Of a stretch of 64,000 bases of DNA, positions 1,159 through 28,339 are shown piece by piece; the stretch's first letter is position 1; each line of letters begins with the position of its first letter. The stretch covers positions 2,844-66,843 of the forward strand of contig CAJTJB010000005.1 in NCBI GenBank assembly GCA_910576955.1, in the 5' to 3' direction. The notes below the pieces were generated by a model, which was given only the letters and a program-made list of their open reading frames with translations, had not been told where the DNA came from and searched no databases. The position numbers and the translations under genes were made by a program. Source of the stretch: an uncultured Alphaproteobacteria bacterium (GTDB taxonomy: Bacteria; Pseudomonadota; Alphaproteobacteria; RF32; CAG-239).

Positions 1159-1182
1159 AAGGCGGGCTTTCCCGCCTTTTTC
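1159..1182 (+). terminator. Rho-independent terminator after ychF
   Basis: GC hairpin ggcggg-cttt-cccgcc followed by a T-run directly after the ychF stop. Confidence 0.7.
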
Positions 1183-1264
1183 ATAAAAATCTTGCAATTT
1201 AAAGACATTACTGTTAGACTACGCTTAAATAAAAATCATTATGTCTAACTAAATTTTTATAAGT

Positions 1265-1621
1265 ATGAATCAATTTTTAAAATTTGCCAAACGGCATTTT
1301 GCCGAAAAGCTTGGTGTTTCCGCAGAAGACGTGGAAAAATGGTACGACTTCGTAAATAAAAATTTTTTTATTTACATTGCTAGCAGTAAATACATTTCTC
1401 CCGATAAACCGGAAACATTCTCCGGACAAAGCGAGTTCAAAACACCTGAAGACGCGTTGAATATCGCCCTCCAAAAGGTTAACAGCGTTGAATTTACCAG
1501 AGAGATACACTTCACCGTTTTCTGCGATATTCCGTTTAATGCCTTAATTCTGTTTGACACAGAGCGGGAAAGGAAGCGGATAATGGAGAAAGACAGTCTT
1601 TTCAAAAACAGAAAAAGCTAA
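1265..1621 (+). CDS. Small hypothetical protein, paralog A of a tandem triplet
   Basis: 118-aa ORF; shares motifs with the next two ORFs: FAEKLGVS near the N-terminus, HFF, and C-terminal ILILFDTERERKRIM. Confidence 0.5.
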   Translation: MNQFLKFAKRHFAEKLGVSAEDVEKWYDFVNKNFFIYIASSKYISPDKPETFSGQSEFKTPEDALNIALQKVNSVEFTREIHFTVFCDIPFNALILFDTERERKRIMEKDSLFKNRKS

Positions 1622-1625
1622 ACCT

Positions 1626-2048
1626 ATGAAAAAGCTCTCTGACTTCACAGATCAGCAATACGCCGAAAAACTTGGTGTATCAATAAGAAGAATTGACAGC
1701 CTGCGCAAATACGTGCACCGACATTTCTTTATTGAAATTTACTCCAATCCGCCACACCGCTATAACAAGCGCGAAACATTTTCAGCTCATCTGAAAATCC
1801 TTAACGATTATGAGACATGTCTAGGTCTGATTACTTTCTGTACAAAAGACGGAAAATTTAAATTTAACTCACCGGAAAAAGCCCTAAAAGTAGCGTTGCG
1901 AAACATTAGGAATGTAGAGTTTGAAAAAGCTGAAGCGCGCCGTATCGGTAACATTCCGCCAAATATTCTCCTTCTGTTTGATACAGAAGAGGAAGAAAGA
2001 CGGATATTGCGAAAACTCAACGCTGATAAATATGGACAAACTCACTGA
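1626..2048 (+). CDS. Small hypothetical protein, paralog B of the tandem triplet
   Basis: 140-aa ORF; YAEKLGVSIRRIDSL, HFFIEIYS, ILLLFDTEEEERRIL; starts 5 nt after paralog A stops. Confidence 0.5.
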   Translation: MKKLSDFTDQQYAEKLGVSIRRIDSLRKYVHRHFFIEIYSNPPHRYNKRETFSAHLKILNDYETCLGLITFCTKDGKFKFNSPEKALKVALRNIRNVEFEKAEARRIGNIPPNILLLFDTEEEERRILRKLNADKYGQTH

Positions 2049-2412
2049 CTTTATGCGGAAGCAATATGCCGAAAAGCTTAAAGTTCCTGTTGAAGAGGTA
2101 GAAGAATTGCACACTTTCGTACAAGAACACTTCTACCTCTCCATCAACAGCTACCCGCAACCACCGGCAGGAAAACCGAAACTGTTTTACTCGAGATTAT
2201 GGTTCAAGGACGATGAAGACGCTTATATCATAGCTGAATTTGATAAAAAAGCCCCTTTATCTTCCCCAGCTGAAGCACTGGACAAAGCCGTAACCCAAGT
2301 AAGCCGCACGACTTTCTCTTATTTCAAATACTTCCCGACAAACATTTTGATATTGTTTGATACGAAACGGGAACGAAACAGAATAATGACTGAAAGTTGG
2401 TACTTCAAATAA
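2027..2412 (+). CDS. Small hypothetical protein, paralog C of the tandem triplet
   Basis: Start placed at internal ATG (MDKLTDFMRKQYAEKLKVPVEEV) where homology to paralogs A and B begins; C-terminal ILILFDTKRERNRIM; overlaps the paralog B stop by about 20 nt. Confidence 0.5.
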
Positions 2413-2414
2413 AA

Positions 2415-2442
2415 AAGCGGGAGATTTTCTCCCGCCTTTTTA
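2415..2442. terminator. Bidirectional rho-independent terminator between paralog C and trxB
   Basis: Hairpin gcgggaga-tttt-ctcccgc flanked by an A-run on the left and a T-run on the right, between convergent genes. Confidence 0.7.
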
Positions 2443-2446
2443 TTGC

Positions 2447-3391: not shown

Positions 3392-4057
3392 CTAGTTTAA
3401 TAGTTTCAAAGTGCTTTCGCGCAATCTCTTTATCCGAGATGCCTTATCTCTTTCCCCCTGCAATTCATATATCGCCAAAAGTTGGCTGCTGATATTGAGC
3501 GTATCCTGATACTTCGCATAAAAATTCCCATCCTGTCCCATCACCCCATCCAAAGCTTTTTCCAAAAATTTAGCTTTAATTTGAGGCAACTCTGCATTTT
3601 CAGCAAGCAACATATATGCAGCAAACTTTTCGTCCGAATTATGATTTTCCGCCCAGGTTTCTTCAACCTTAACCAAGGCATCCTCATCATTAACATAGTA
3701 ATAGACATCTTTTAACGCCAGCAAAACCCGATTTTTTTCTTCTGTTGAACGGGCATAAGCCAGCGCTTGATTATAATATTCCGCTGCCAGAAAGTATCTC
3801 GCATTATCTTGGTTTTGTAAACCGTCTTCATAGTAAATATCACCAAGTTTAACATATGTCCAAAACAATACCGAAGAAACATTCGGCGCATAGGTATCAT
3901 TATGTTGCAAAAATTTCATAAAAAACCGCAAAATTGCGCTATATTGCACAATTTTCGCATCATTATTCAAAAAATTTTCCCGTTCCTGCACCATTTTATA
4001 TAAGTGTAAAAAACGGTTTTCTGCGCTTGTTTCAGTCGTCACAGCCGTTTTCAACAT
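3392..4057 (-). CDS. Hypothetical protein, predicted all-alpha/TPR-like
   Basis: 221-aa ORF, with trxB and the next gene abutting it on the same strand; Tyr/Ala/Leu-rich helical repeats (YYNQALAYARSTEEKNRVLLALKDVYYY); no catalytic motif recognised. Confidence 0.45.
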   Translation of the reverse strand: MLKTAVTTETSAENRFLHLYKMVQERENFLNNDAKIVQYSAILRFFMKFLQHNDTYAPNVSSVLFWTYVKLGDIYYEDGLQNQDNARYFLAAEYYNQALAYARSTEEKNRVLLALKDVYYYVNDEDALVKVEETWAENHNSDEKFAAYMLLAENAELPQIKAKFLEKALDGVMGQDGNFYAKYQDTLNISSQLLAIYELQGERDKASRIKRLRESTLKLLN

Positions 4058-4446: not shown

Positions 4447-4734
4447 TTAAAGGCGTATAAACCGCCCTTGTTGTATGGACGGCAAAACCGGAGATTCGCT
4501 TCCGGCTAAAAAAGATATCTTATCAACCCTTGCAAACAACGGACCACCATAACAGCGTTTTATCATTTCATCCACCGCCGTTTCTTCCCCGCACATTAAA
4601 ATCTCGACGCTGCCGTCTTCAACATTTCGAACCCAGCCGGAAAGCCCGCCGATTTCCAGAGCCTGCATAACTGCCCATCGCCGAAACCCGATTCGCTGAA
4701 CACGTCCCTCAATTTTCAGATAAACTTTTTTCAT
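4447..4734 (-). CDS. acyP: Acylphosphatase
   Basis: About 95 aa from MKKVYLKIEGRVQRIGFR...GWVRNVEDGSVE, matching acylphosphatase signature regions; ggag RBS upstream. Confidence 0.7.
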   Translation of the reverse strand: MKKVYLKIEGRVQRIGFRRWAVMQALEIGGLSGWVRNVEDGSVEILMCGEETAVDEMIKRCYGGPLFARVDKISFLAGSESPVLPSIQQGRFIRL

Positions 4735-5203
4735 TCCGTAGCCGCTCCAATTGTGCAAGTTCGTTTCTTATATTCTTATGCTGTTCATCTGTTTCCGCAA
4801 TAGCGCCCCATTTTGATTGCTGCCAAAGTTCCTCATAAAAGCCCGCCGAAAAAAGCTGCTCCGCAGAAATTTTCCCCTCTGCAAACAAGACGCCGAGCAA
4901 AACCGAACGCACTTTTATTGCCGCCAAATACAACACTGCAAATTTATAAACGGGCAACCTCTTCAAATATGCCTGCAAACCGGCATCCTGCTCAAAATTT
5001 ACAGCAGCAACCTCAAGCCCTATTGTCAAAACAAACACTGTATTTAAAATCTTATTTGCGGCAGTCACATACGGAGTGTAAAAATCCGCACATTTCTCAT
5101 CAAACGCAAACAATATCGTATCCGTTTTAATAAAAGCAATCAGGGTATCGGTCAGCCGTACCCTGCTTTGCTCGATTTCTTTTAAAATCTTCTCCGAAAA
5201 CAT
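4709..5203 (-). CDS. Hypothetical protein
   Basis: 164-aa ORF packed between the AsmA-family gene and acyP on the same strand; no firm family assignment (weak resemblance to alphaproteobacterial ATP12-like chaperones is speculative). Confidence 0.4.
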   Translation of the reverse strand: MFSEKILKEIEQSRVRLTDTLIAFIKTDTILFAFDEKCADFYTPYVTAANKILNTVFVLTIGLEVAAVNFEQDAGLQAYLKRLPVYKFAVLYLAAIKVRSVLLGVLFAEGKISAEQLFSAGFYEELWQQSKWGAIAETDEQHKNIRNELAQLERLRNEKSLSEN

Positions 5204-25898: not shown

Positions 25899-26912
25899 CT
25901 AGAAAGAAGCGGAAACGCCGACTTTGGCGTGACCAGACAATTTAGTCAGGTTCTGCTCCTGCTCCTCACCGTGGTTAACGGAAACAGAGCTGCCGACACC
26001 AAGTTCAGCAAACAGGTTGATATTTTTCCATATAACCTTACTGAAACGAACATCGGCATTCCAGATAAATCCATTATTTTTGGAGCTTATCTGGGCATCA
26101 TCCCTGTCCGTTTTCTGCGACTGATACCCAGCACCGATCATCGGAGCAATGTACCAGTTACGATCTGCAGACTGGAAGACTTTCCATCCCATACGAGCAC
26201 CCAAAGAAAGCTCGGTGTAACGACCAGTGGCCTCGGCTGTGCCGGTGTGCTCTTTAGAACTCATCTCTCCCCACAAACCGAGGATAAGACGATTTCTTTC
26301 GAGCTCTGCGTTAACTCCTACAAGAGGAGTAACGTCACCGCCTTGTGTCCATTTTGCTCCTCCATATAAACCTACAGTCCACCAATTCAGCTTTTTACCA
26401 GCTGCATCGGTGAGCGTGGGCTCATAATAACGGTCAGGGTTGGCTGTCACATCAGCAAGTTGAGCATCGCTCAAATTACTGATATAACCATCCTGCCCGT
26501 GAGAAACCTCTACCTCATCGCTCTCGGGAGCAACGGCAACCACCTGGGGAGCTACGGTCTGTCCTTTAACAACAGAAACGTTGTCAAAGGGTATCTCTTT
26601 CTTGGAAAGAGATGCCACCATAGCCTCGGTCACGCCCTCTCCAGAAAGGAGAGTTTGAAACGCAACCTCTGCTCCCTTAAGGTAAGCCTTGCGGGTTACC
26701 TTAACGGCAGATACGCTACCGGTTGTCCTATTGCGGACGTTAATGCTGGATACACCGACGAGCGTATCAGCAGGGTTTTTCACTAGGATTTCAGCACACG
26801 CCTTCGCGTCAAGTGTGCTTAATCCGTTTACTACCTCCTGTGCGTTGGCGCTACCAGCGGCAAACGCAACCATCATGGCGATGATGGATTTGAAAAAGCT
26901 TGTTGCTTTCAT
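25899..26912 (-). CDS. Outer-membrane beta-barrel protein, paralog 1 (shared N-terminal module, unique C-terminal barrel)
   Basis: 337 aa; signal peptide MKATSFFKSIIAMMVAFAAGSANA; alternating hydrophobic beta-strand pattern; C-terminal Phe (GVSASF). Confidence 0.6.
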   Translation of the reverse strand: MKATSFFKSIIAMMVAFAAGSANAQEVVNGLSTLDAKACAEILVKNPADTLVGVSSINVRNRTTGSVSAVKVTRKAYLKGAEVAFQTLLSGEGVTEAMVASLSKKEIPFDNVSVVKGQTVAPQVVAVAPESDEVEVSHGQDGYISNLSDAQLADVTANPDRYYEPTLTDAAGKKLNWWTVGLYGGAKWTQGGDVTPLVGVNAELERNRLILGLWGEMSSKEHTGTAEATGRYTELSLGARMGWKVFQSADRNWYIAPMIGAGYQSQKTDRDDAQISSKNNGFIWNADVRFSKVIWKNINLFAELGVGSSVSVNHGEEQEQNLTKLSGHAKVGVSASF

Positions 26913-27262: not shown

Positions 27263-28339
27263 TTAGTTCCCATATTGGGAAAGATTGGTCTTACCGAACA
27301 ATGTAATGGGCAAGCTAACGCCAAACTCTAACCCCACATTGTGAGCGTTTGACATATTGTGACGGGTTGCGCCACGAAAATTAGCTTTTGCCCATACCTG
27401 ATAAGCAACACTACCCTGATGGGGACGGAATTCAAAAGTGACTTTTGCCACTCCTGAAAAGTAGTTACCCCAGCTTGACATTTCACCAACAACTTCATCC
27501 TTATCGTTGATAAGGGGAGTTGTTTTGGTCTTCTGCCAAGTGTAGCGCACGCCACCACCTACCCATATACGATAGGTGTCCCATGCTCCAAAAGACAACA
27601 GCTTATAATAAGCCATTGCCTCTGTGGCAACCGTATTGTAACGGTCACCGTCGGCATAGGTTGTCTGCCCCCACTGTCCTCCAACGCTAACGGCAAATTT
27701 CTTGCCGTTATATTGGAGTTCGGCTCCGGCAACGACACCAGCCTTACCATCCTGCAGCGAAACGCCGGCAAGAGGAGCCACACGCAGACCATTCTTATCT
27801 TTGGTCGACGTGGGAACGCTGATGGTGTCACCAGTTGAAGTTGTTACCTCCAACCAACGTGTGTCCTGCGGACCACGGTCTTTGGTGACAACTTCGAGAG
27901 CAGCATTAGCCTCAAGCGCTGCGCGCTTTAAACTTGCCACCTCATCACTCTCGAGAGCAACGGCAACCACCTCGGTAGCAGCAGCTACACCTTTAACAAC
28001 TGAAACGTTGTCAAAGGGTATCTCTTTCTTGGAAAGAGATGCCACCATAGCCTCGGTCACGCCCTCTCCAGAAAGGAGAGTTTGAAACGCAACCTCTGCT
28101 CCCTTAAGGTAAGCCTTGCGGGTTACCTTAACGGCAGATACGCTACCGGTTGTCCTATTGCGGACGTTAATGCTGGATACACCGACGAGCGTATCAGCAG
28201 GGTTTTTCACTAGGATTTCAGCACACGCCTTCGCGTCAAGTGTGCTTAATCCGTTTACTACCTCCTGTGCGTTGGCGCTACCAGCGGCAAACGCAACCAT
28301 CATGGCGATGATGGATTTGAAAAAGCTTGTTGCTTTCAT
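27263..28339 (-). CDS. Outer-membrane beta-barrel protein, paralog 2 (same N-terminal 117 aa as paralog 1, different barrel)
   Basis: 358 aa; first 117 residues identical to paralog 1; divergent Gly/Tyr/Trp-rich beta-strand region; ends ...LSQYGN with no terminal Phe. Confidence 0.6.
   Translation of the reverse strand: MKATSFFKSIIAMMVAFAAGSANAQEVVNGLSTLDAKACAEILVKNPADTLVGVSSINVRNRTTGSVSAVKVTRKAYLKGAEVAFQTLLSGEGVTEAMVASLSKKEIPFDNVSVVKGVAAATEVVAVALESDEVASLKRAALEANAALEVVTKDRGPQDTRWLEVTTSTGDTISVPTSTKDKNGLRVAPLAGVSLQDGKAGVVAGAELQYNGKKFAVSVGGQWGQTTYADGDRYNTVATEAMAYYKLLSFGAWDTYRIWVGGGVRYTWQKTKTTPLINDKDEVVGEMSSWGNYFSGVAKVTFEFRPHQGSVAYQVWAKANFRGATRHNMSNAHNVGLEFGVSLPITLFGKTNLSQYGN

What the first reader, a model, noticed from the sequence alone, without database searches (positions are those of the whole stretch)
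1265..2412. Tandem triplet of divergent small paralogs of an unrecognised family with HTH-like and ILxLFDTExERxRI motifs
Three consecutive plus-strand ORFs of about 118-140 aa are clearly homologous to one another, at roughly 30-40% identity by eye. Each has an N-terminal [FY]AEKLGVS segment resembling a helix-turn-helix, a central HF[FY] and PE[DK]AL motif, and a strongly conserved C-terminal IL[IL]LFDT[EK]xERxRI[ML]. The genes are packed tightly: a 5-nt gap, then an overlap of about 20 nt. The block ends at a strong bidirectional terminator. I do not recognise the family. The divergence suggests old duplications kept under selection, for example as regulators or specificity or immunity-like factors.
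Basis: seen in the sequence. Interest (0 to 1): 0.55.

Follow-up and report, generated by a model that had tools for sequence, protein, structure and literature searches.

The report
Tandem trio of an undescribed small-protein family
Three adjacent genes in an uncultured gut alphaproteobacterium encode old, diverged copies of a small protein found in only a few related gut bacteria; it matches no known family or solved fold, its copy number changes by recombination between the copies, and its function is still unknown.

Summary
ORFs A (1265-1621), B (1626-2048) and C (2032-2412) are homologous (34-36% identity, E about 1e-19 to 1e-20). They form one promoter-to-terminator unit between ychF and trxB.

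The family is tiny: about 35 clusters among 5.8 billion proteins, all from animal-gut Alphaproteobacteria MAGs. It has no Pfam, NCBIfam, PHROG or PADLOC membership and no phage or plasmid homologues. AlphaFold models are confident (pLDDT 90 and 87), with the order a1-a2-b1-b2-b3-a3 followed by a conserved PxNxLxLFD segment. Neither model has a significant Foldseek match in PDB or BFVD.

The helix-turn-helix idea is not supported as a fold. There are only two N-terminal helices, the second is acidic in A and C, and HTH profile hits are sub-threshold.

The genes are under purifying but relaxed selection (dN/dS 0.16-0.57, against 0.02 or less for ychF). The tandem arrangement is old. The same slot in related genomes holds 1, 2 or 3 copies, including in-frame A/C chimeras made by crossovers in the conserved motif-coding DNA. 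Window A has lost the hypervariable b2-b3 hairpin. B is charge-reversed (pI 9.6, family about 5).

My best guess is non-enzymatic binding or regulatory proteins. Interest is moderate to low.

The parts
1161..1181 (+). Intrinsic terminator of ychF (GGCGGG-CTTT-CCCGCC followed by a T-run). It marks the upstream boundary of the unit.
   Evidence: Read directly from the sequence. Conserved in all related loci.
1192..1220 (+). Putative sigma-70 promoter of the array: -35 TTGCAA (1192-1197), 17-nt spacer, -10 TAGACT (1215-1220).
   Evidence: Conserved in 10 related loci. Only the third base of the -10 hexamer varies (TAGACT / TAAACT / TATACT). The consensus scan did not list it, so this is inference from conservation. 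Distant family members have their own TTGACA-17-TATATT or TTGACA-17-TATTCT promoters.
1238..1251 (+). Conserved leader element ATTATGTCTAAC (1238-1249). It contains a 3-codon mini-ORF, ATG TCT AAC TAA (1240-1251).
   Evidence: The exact 12-mer occurs once in the 64-kb window. It is exact in 8 of the 10 related ychF-trxB loci aligned; L007 and L002 differ by 1 base and L012 by 2. It is also exact upstream of a distant homologue (P0026; one search shows it 89% identical to P0020, and one search shows it 29% identical to window B) in an unrelated context (L015-L017). Its function is unknown.
1265..1621 (+). Paralogue A, 118 aa, pI 7.8. It carries an in-frame 75-nt (25-codon) deletion at 1420/1421 relative to all orthologues. 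The deletion removes strands b2-b3.
   Evidence: This exact sequence is seen on 48 contigs.
1626..2048 (+). Paralogue B, 140 aa. It is the basic, charge-reversed copy (pI 9.6, net +8). Its second helix, SIRRIDSLRKYVHRHF, is basic.
   Evidence: AF2 model pLDDT 90.1, pTM 0.80.
2032..2412 (+). Paralogue C, 126 aa, near-neutral (pI 6.7). It overlaps B by 17 nt.
   Evidence: Orthologues are in L002 and L007, with the divergent P0015 in L024.
1544..1585 (+). DNA coding for LILFDTERERKRIM in A. The equivalent segments are 1965-2006 in B and 2344-2388 in C. This is a recombination-prone conserved segment.
   Evidence: The L020 gene switches from A-like to C-like sequence here. L002 gene 1 switches to a B-like tail here.
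2408..2444 (.). Bidirectional intrinsic terminator shared by C (+) and trxB (-).
   Evidence: repeat I1: 17-nt arms, 94% complementary.

Best explanation
**What is shown.** A, B and C are real protein-coding genes. They are anciently duplicated tandem paralogues of an undescribed family of small (about 120-150 aa), soluble, cytoplasmic alpha/beta proteins restricted to one lineage.

**Expression (inferred).** The genes appear to be transcribed as one unit from a conserved sigma-70-type promoter upstream of A to a bidirectional terminator after C. None has a Shine-Dalgarno sequence. A follows an AU-rich, unstructured leader, and B and C are probably translated by coupling (4-nt gap, 17-nt overlap).

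**Array dynamics (shown).** The array sits in a variable slot between ychF and trxB. It grows and shrinks by unequal homologous recombination between the DNA segments that encode the conserved N-terminal (AEKL..VEE) and C-terminal (LILFDTE.E) motifs. This produces intact in-frame chimeras.

**Mechanism (inferred).**
- The only residues conserved across the family are hydrophobic or structural, plus one Asn and one Asp (PxNxLxLFD). There is no catalytic constellation.
- The proteins therefore most likely act by binding, as small modulators of another cellular component, rather than as enzymes.
- The constrained surface is helices a1-a2, helix a3 and the PxNxLxLFD segment.
- The b2-b3 hairpin is a fast-evolving, dispensable loop, and it is deleted in window A.
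- Most members are acidic, so direct DNA binding is unlikely for them.
- The derived basic B copy could bind nucleic acid or pair with its acidic siblings.
For: **Homology and reality of the genes**
- Paralogue E-values are about 1e-19 to 1e-20.
- dN/dS is 0.16-0.57 for A, 0.38 for B and 0.21-0.26 for C. The genomes compared have flank dS of 0.56-2.4, mostly 0.6-1.4.
- AF2 confidence is pLDDT 90.1 / pTM 0.80 for B and 87.0 / 0.79 for a distant member. Both have the same element order.

**Restricted, unannotated family**
- Searches found 15 + 14 clusters among 5.8 billion proteins, and 13 representatives among 1.84 billion.
- There are no curated family hits.

**Old tandem array**
- L024 has an A-clade copy followed by a C-type copy, consistent with the tree.

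**Copy number at the same slot**
- 3 copies in the window and L001.
- 2 copies in L002/L009 and in L008.
- 1 copy in L003-L006, L007, L010, L011, L020, L022 and L023.
- A truncated copy in L012.
- Sources.

**Chimeras**
- L007 has an A head (89% identity to A over the first 63 nt) and then a C body (78-89% identity to C).
- L020 has an A body (94-100% identity) and then a C tail plus the C terminator.
- L002 gene 1 has a B-like tail and keeps the 17-nt overlap with C.
- Sources.

**Constraint map**
- pN/pS is 0.15-0.2 over a1-a2 and a3, and 0.76-0.82 over the b2-b3 hairpin.

**Charge**
- The family has pI about 5; B-type copies have pI 9.6-10.

**Translation and transcription signals**
- A, B and C have no SD, while most ATG-start genes in the window do.
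- The leaders are unstructured.
- The promoter and terminator are conserved.

**Conserved columns**
- Only A, L, F, P, N and D are conserved family-wide.
Against: - Function is not shown by any homology, context or experiment. The 'binding modulator' reading is inference from the lack of conserved catalytic residues.
- No conserved partner gene exists to suggest a target.
- Expression is not shown. The lack of an SD on all three genes could also mean low translation.
- The relaxed dN/dS and the internal deletion in A are compatible with partial decay of some copies.
Confidence: 0.5

Rival explanations
1. They are small helix-turn-helix (or winged-helix-like) nucleic-acid-binding regulators. 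The N-terminal helix pair would bind DNA, possibly the conserved element in their own promoter or leader (autoregulation), and the paralogues would have diverged in specificity.
For: - The sequence pattern h-AEKLGVS-x3-V-x2-h gives repeated faint HTH-type hits, all mapping to residues about 6-35: Sigma70_r3 E 0.031, YdaS 0.22, phrog_4779 'transcriptional regulator' in 5 of 21 members (best 0.048), and the DeoR N-terminal domain 7bhy at E 0.3-1.
- The models have helix-turn-helix geometry at GVS.
- B has a basic second helix and pI 9.6.
- The exact 12-mer ATTATGTCTAAC travels with the gene in a distant homologue.
- In the window, an inverted repeat GTTAGAC-N23-GTCTAAC overlaps the -10 hexamer.
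Against: - All HTH hits are far below the curated cut-offs (14.8 against 25.3 bits).
- There are only two helices before the sheet, and no three-helix bundle.
- No HTH or wHTH structure appears among the top 50 Foldseek hits for either model.
- The second helix is strongly acidic in A, C and nearly all other members, which have pI about 5.
- The inverted repeat is not conserved. The left arm varies without compensation, and the repeat is absent from L015.
- The 12-mer is absent upstream of other distant members (L013, L018).
Confidence: 0.2
2. They are an orphan array of immunity, antitoxin or anti-defence-type inhibitor proteins. Each diverged copy would neutralise a different toxin or effector, which would explain the fast evolution and variable copy number.
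For: - The genes form a tandem array of divergent small paralogues with copy number 1-3 at one slot and recombinant chimeras.
- dN is 7-70 times that of ychF.
- The proteins are mostly acidic and soluble.
- The b2-b3 loop is hypervariable.
- The family is restricted to one lineage.
Against: - No toxin, Rhs, CDI, T6SS or TA partner lies next to any of about 15 distinct loci; the flanks are housekeeping genes.
- There are no Imm, SUKH, antitoxin or PADLOC profile hits.
- There are no phage, plasmid or viral-contig homologues.
- No window of the gene has pN/pS above 1.
Confidence: 0.12
3. The core a-b-b-b-a module is a dsRBD-like or RNase H-like RNA-binding unit, and the proteins act on RNA or the ribosome.
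For: - The element order a2-b1-b2-b3-a3 is the same in both models.
- Both independent models draw weak hits to dsRBDs (Loqs, ADAR1, DCL4, PACT, TARBP2) and to RNase H domains.
Against: - All such hits have E of 0.4 or more, probability of 0.33 or less, and TM-scores of about 0.34 or less.
- The position of the dsRBD basic KKxAK motif is PE[ED]AL here, which is acidic.
- Most members have pI about 5.
Confidence: 0.08
4. The ORFs are decaying or non-functional remnants with no present role.
For: - There is an internal 25-codon deletion in A.
- L012 has an N-terminally truncated copy.
- Copies have been lost repeatedly in related genomes.
- dN/dS is relaxed (up to 0.57).
- None of the three genes has an SD.
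Against: - All copies, including the chimeras and the deleted A, keep open reading frames.
- dN/dS is clearly below 1 over dS of 0.5-0.9.
- The promoter, leader and terminator are conserved better than synonymous sites.
- At least one copy is retained in every related locus.
- The AF2 models are confident.
Confidence: 0.05

Closest known systems
DeoR/SorC-type and Cro-like N-terminal helix-turn-helix motifs (e.g. PDB 7bhy, Pfam YdaS_toxin, Sigma70_r3)
   Same: They share the local sequence pattern (hydrophobic)-AE-x-L-G-[VI]-S-x3-[VI]-x2-L, followed by a beta-strand. The predicted geometry is helix-turn-helix at GVS.
   Different: - Matches are only sub-threshold (E 0.03-1).
- There is no third helix.
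- The second helix is acidic except in B.
- There are no structural HTH hits.
- The rest of the protein (three-stranded sheet, a3, PxNxLxLFD) has no counterpart.
dsRBD-like alpha-beta-beta-beta-alpha modules
   Same: The order of secondary-structure elements in the core is the same. Weak hits recur for two independent models.
   Different: The hits are at noise level, the basic RNA-binding motifs are absent, and the proteins are mostly acidic.
Tandem arrays of polymorphic-toxin immunity genes
   Same: Both are small, divergent tandem paralogues with copy-number variation and recombinant chimeras at one chromosomal slot.
   Different: There is no adjacent or conserved toxin gene, no Imm or SUKH profile match, and distant members are solitary genes between housekeeping genes.
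Pfam DUF3785 (Clostridial proteins of unknown function)
   Same: It is the best recurring Pfam hit (3 members, best E 0.0082) and is of similar length.
   Different: The score is below the cut-off (16.7 against 27 bits). The match is not collinear (residues 5-47 against profile positions 46-91). DUF3785 itself has no known function.

Membership tests
Helix-turn-helix DNA-binding domains (Pfam HTH clan) | Significant profile match to an HTH family | tested here: not met
   Best hits are Sigma70_r3 at E 0.031 (14.8 bits against a 25.3 cut-off), YdaS at 0.22, phrog_4779 at 0.048 and PDB 7bhy at 0.3-1.
Helix-turn-helix DNA-binding domains (Pfam HTH clan) | Three-helix bundle or winged-helix fold | tested here: not met
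Helix-turn-helix DNA-binding domains (Pfam HTH clan) | Polar or basic recognition helix | tested here: inconclusive
   The helix is acidic in A (AEDVEKWYDFVNKNF), in C (VEEVEELHTFVQEHF) and in the distant members. It is basic only in B (IRRIDSLRKYVHRHF).
Helix-turn-helix DNA-binding domains (Pfam HTH clan) | Sequence-specific DNA binding | not testable with these tools
   This needs EMSA or footprinting.
Polymorphic-toxin immunity proteins (SUKH / Imm families) | Encoded next to, or in an island with, a toxin gene | tested here: not met
   The flanks are ychF/trxB, lnt/ybeY, NUDIX, rplS and rarA. No toxin domain lies within 3-7 kb in any locus.
Polymorphic-toxin immunity proteins (SUKH / Imm families) | Profile match to a known immunity family | tested here: not met
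   None at E up to 1 in Pfam for 21 members.
Polymorphic-toxin immunity proteins (SUKH / Imm families) | Tandem divergent paralogues with variable copy number | tested here: met
   There are 1-3 copies, plus chimeras, at the same slot.
Type II toxin-antitoxin antitoxins | Two-gene cassette with a toxin of a known family | tested here: not met
   All three genes are paralogues of one another. Single-copy loci and solitary distant members exist. There are no TA profile hits.
dsRBD | Significant structural match to the alpha-beta-beta-beta-alpha dsRBD fold | tested here: not met
   The element order is compatible, but Foldseek gives E of 0.4 or more and probability of 0.33 or less.
dsRBD | Basic RNA-contacting motif at the N-terminus of the last helix (KKxAK) | tested here: not met
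   The position reads [ST]PE[EDK]AL in the family.
Known anti-phage defence systems (PADLOC) | Profile match to a defence protein, or location in a defence island or mobile element | tested here: not met
   Only isolated chance-level hits, in 1 of 21 members each. There are no homologues in viral contigs, phages or plasmids.

The most novel reading that the evidence does not exclude
The family has a new fold and acts as a self-contained regulatory module unique to a clade of gut Alphaproteobacteria. Acidic (A/C-type) and derived basic (B-type) paralogues would form hetero-oligomers whose composition is reshuffled by recombination between the copies. Their synthesis would be controlled through an SD-less leader that carries a conserved mini-ORF element (ATTATGTCTAAC) that has stayed with the gene across deep divergence.
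Probability: 0.12. Interest if true: 0.55.

Novelty: categorically new. Interest (0 to 1): 0.35.

Why it matters
If the family really has no relatives, it is one more example of a lineage-specific invention in uncultured gut Alphaproteobacteria.

It would also be a clean natural record of how a tandem array of small genes evolves. The conserved motif-coding DNA acts as crossover points. These crossovers yield in-frame chimeras, array collapse to one copy, a charge-reversed paralogue and loss of a dispensable loop.

It offers a compact test case for three things:
- structure-based function discovery;
- translation without a Shine-Dalgarno sequence in an organism that otherwise uses one;
- a leader element that has been conserved together with the gene.

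It does not at present bear on any long-standing open question. Many MAG genes are equally uncharacterised.

Tried and rejected
- **Curated family libraries.** Pfam, NCBIfam, PHROGs and PADLOC gave no hit above threshold.
- **PDB sequence profiles.** The whole family and the core sub-alignment gave nothing below E 0.3.
- **Foldseek.** Two models against PDB and one against BFVD gave nothing at E of 1e-3 or better. NTF2-like hits appeared for one model only. BamE, dsRBD and RNase H hits were at noise level.
- **RNA genes.** Rfam and tRNA scans of the window found nothing.
- **Other collections.**
  - Viral contigs, phage records and plasmid records hold no relatives.
- **Further protein search.** A third search with a profile weighted to distant members added no new members.
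- **Inverted repeat as an operator.** GTTAGAC-N23-GTCTAAC is rejected as a conserved feature. It is exact only in the window/L001 and in L020/L021, its left arm is the -10 hexamer and varies without compensation, and it is absent from L015.
- **Leader RNA structure.** None beyond shuffles (z = -0.1 and +1.8).
- **Mobile-element origin.** There are no flanking repeats beyond the two terminators, and no integrase is adjacent. GC content is only mildly lower than in the flanks (0.35-0.42 against 0.45-0.54), and the neighbouring hypothetical genes are similar.
- **Longer TTG start for C at 1921.** Rejected, because homology starts at 2032.

Full report
**1. The observation**

The region holds three + strand ORFs:
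- A, 1265-1621, 118 aa.
- B, 1626-2048, 140 aa.
- C, 2032-2412, 126 aa, counted from the ATG at 2032.

The mechanical ORF list also offers a TTG at 1921 for C. Similarity to A, B and the orthologues begins at 2032.

Pairwise BLASTP gives 34-36% identity with E = 4e-20, 2e-19 and 6e-20, so the three are homologous.

A has NFF rather than HF[FY]. C has YAEKLKVP and PAEAL. The A-B gap is 4 nt and the B-C overlap is 17 nt.

The block ends at a symmetrical terminator (arms 2408-2424 and 2428-2444, 94% complementary, A-run and T-run). C shares it with the convergent trxB.

**2. Family size and annotation**

A profile search of 5.8 billion clustered proteins found 15 clusters. An exhaustive HMMER scan of 1.84 billion representatives found 13, all with E of 3e-11 or better and nothing weaker. 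Two further profile searches added about 14 distant clusters and then no more.

The only names any source gives are 'MAG: hypothetical protein [Alphaproteobacteria bacterium]'. The genome records are gut MAGs, for example water-deer rectum and colon, from the ruminant catalogue described in PMC8199421.

The searches for known relatives all came back empty:
- No member reaches threshold in Pfam, NCBIfam, PHROGs or PADLOC.
- PDB sequence profiles give nothing below E 0.3.
- There are no relatives in IMG/VR contigs, phage records or plasmid records.

**3. Structure**

Two AF2 models were made:
- B with a 14-sequence alignment: pLDDT 90.1, pTM 0.80.
- The distant member P0020 with 20 sequences: pLDDT 87.0, pTM 0.79.

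Both show the same order. Two N-terminal helices come first, with the turn at G-V-S. A three-stranded sheet (b1-b2-b3) follows, then a long helix a3 beginning at [ST]PE[ED]AL, then the conserved PxNxLxLFD segment. In the ychF-trxB clade only, a basic C-terminal helix (ERERKRIM...) follows.

**4. The helix-turn-helix idea**

Several faint profile hits map to residues about 6-35: Sigma70_r3, YdaS, a phage 'transcriptional regulator' PHROG, and the DeoR N-terminal domain. All are far below threshold.

The models show two helices, not a three-helix bundle. No HTH structure appears among the fold hits.

The second helix is acidic in A, C and nearly every other member. Typical family pI is about 5. 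Only B-type copies are basic, at pI 9.6-10 and net charge +8 to +13.

The segment therefore looks like an HTH in sequence pattern, but membership of HTH families is not supported.

**5. Selection**

Related genomes share YchF at 98-100% and TrxB at 88-99% amino-acid identity. A orthologues are only 63-89% identical over aligned positions.

| Gene | dN/dS |
|---|---|
| A | 0.16-0.57 |
| B | 0.38 |
| C | 0.21-0.26 |
| ychF | about 0.002-0.02 |
| trxB | 0.004-0.07 |

These values are Nei-Gojobori estimates, with synonymous divergence of the flanking genes of 0.56-2.4, mostly 0.6-1.4.

The genes are therefore coding and constrained, but they evolve 7-70 times faster than ychF at non-synonymous sites.

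A sliding window over A orthologues shows where the constraint lies. It is strongest over a1-a2 and a3 (pN/pS 0.15-0.2). It is almost absent over the b2-b3 hairpin (0.76-0.82).

Family-wide conserved columns are only A, L, F and P plus one N and one D. This is not the pattern of an enzyme.

**6. Array history**

The ychF-to-trxB slot holds different numbers of copies in different genomes.

| Locus | Content of the slot |
|---|---|
| window, L001 | A, B, C |
| L008 | A + B, then the terminator |
| L002 / L009 | gene 1 + C |
| L003-L006, L010 | one copy |
| L011 | one copy, plus an inserted OMP-like ORF |
| L007, L020, L022, L023 | one copy |
| L012 | one N-terminally truncated copy |

Nucleotide alignments show that some of these single copies are recombinants:
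- L007 has the A upstream region and about the first 25 codons (89% identity to A), then a C body (78-89% identity to C).
- L020 is 94-100% identical to window A up to the LFDTERE-coding DNA, then continues as the C tail and C terminator.
- L002 gene 1 ends in a B-like tail and keeps the 17-nt overlap with C.

The crossovers lie in the two most conserved motif-coding segments. This explains why the products stay in frame.

A more distant species (L024) has a P0017-like A-clade copy followed 11 nt later by a C-type copy, next to rarA. A neighbour-joining tree groups {A types, P0016, P0017} against {C types, B types}. The tandem duplication therefore predates these species, and the single-copy states are secondary collapses.

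Window A differs from the otherwise near-identical L020 gene (dS 0.14) by an in-frame 75-nt deletion. The deletion removes exactly the hypervariable b2-b3 hairpin. This allele is on 48 contigs.

**7. Expression signals**

The 108-nt region upstream of A is better conserved than synonymous sites. It contains TTGCAA-17-TAGACT, in which only the third base of the -10 hexamer varies.

Distant members, each solitary between unrelated housekeeping genes, also have strong promoters and terminators of their own.

None of A, B or C has a Shine-Dalgarno sequence, although most ATG-start genes in the window do. The leaders are AU-rich and no more structured than shuffled sequence. The window encodes ribosomal protein S1.

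The exact 12-mer ATTATGTCTAAC (1238-1249) contains the mini-ORF ATG TCT AAC TAA. It is unique in the window. It recurs exactly upstream of the distant homologue in L015-L017, but not in L013 or L018. I could not explain it.

**8. Interpretation**

Shown:
- a real, old, tandemly duplicated family restricted to one lineage;
- recombination-driven turnover of the array;
- relaxed purifying selection;
- no detectable membership of known families.

Inferred: the proteins are non-enzymatic and act by binding. The helices a1-a2, a3 and the PxNxLxLFD segment would form the functional core, and the b2-b3 hairpin would be a dispensable variable loop. B is a derived, charge-reversed copy that might bind nucleic acid or pair with its acidic siblings.

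Rivals:
- HTH-type regulator, about 0.2.
- Orphan immunity-like array, about 0.12.
- dsRBD-like RNA binder, about 0.08.
- Decaying ORFs, about 0.05.

**9. Verdict**

The family is far from anything described, as far as these tools can see. With no functional lead it is of moderate to low interest (0.35).

Noticed in passing
window 1238-1251; L015 6970-6981 (also L016, L017): The exact 12-mer ATTATGTCTAAC in the leader of gene A contains a 3-codon mini-ORF (ATG TCT AAC TAA). It is unique in the window. It recurs exactly 20-30 nt upstream of a distant family member in an unrelated genomic context. It is absent upstream of the L013 and L018 members. Leaders of the distant members also hold tiny ORFs (ATG ATG TGA in L013; a 13-codon uORF ending 2 nt before the start in L018).
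   Followed up: partly
window 1243-1264, 1604-1625, 2010-2031: None of the three paralogues has a Shine-Dalgarno sequence, while most ATG-start genes in the window have AGGAG, AGGA or GGAG. This suggests SD-independent initiation for A and translational coupling for B and C.
   Followed up: partly
window 1420/1421: There is an in-frame 75-nt deletion in paralogue A relative to the near-identical L020 gene. It removes strands b2-b3, the least constrained part of the protein. Short TCCG microhomology lies at the junction.
   Followed up: yes
window 25899-26912 (-) and 27263-28339 (-): A tandem pair of signal-peptide-bearing, OMP beta-barrel-like proteins (337 and 358 aa). Their first 117 residues and their 22-nt upstream sequences are identical, but their C-terminal halves are strongly divergent. 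This looks like recent gene conversion or a shared-head, variable-barrel arrangement.
   Followed up: partly
L011 6667-7410: In one related MAG a 247-aa outer-membrane-like ORF is inserted between the single family gene and trxB. The ychF-trxB slot therefore accepts other accessory genes too.
   Followed up: no
A orthologues, codons 1-35 (window 1265-1369): Synonymous divergence is unusually low in the first 35 codons or so (pS 0.14-0.29, against 0.4-0.55 further on and 0.6-1.4 in the flanking genes). This hints at nucleotide-level constraint near the start, or at gene conversion or recombination between lineages or paralogues.
   Followed up: partly
L003 6412-6495, L022 3433-3520, L023 1707-1787, L008 1406-1450: In loci that lack C, the roughly 50 nt between the last stop codon and the terminator keeps a sequence like the 3' end of C (ACTT[TC]AAACATTAA before the terminator). 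This is possibly a scar of a deleted copy.
   Followed up: partly
window 3392-4057 (-), 4709-5203 (-): Two further conserved syntenic hypothetical proteins (221 and 164 aa) downstream of trxB have no Pfam match. The 221-aa one is kept in every related locus.
   Followed up: no
P0019, P0021, P0031 (distant family members): Some distant members carry C-terminal extensions after the LFDK motif. P0019 has a Cys-rich tail of about 100 aa, and P0021 and P0031 have very acidic tails.
   Followed up: no
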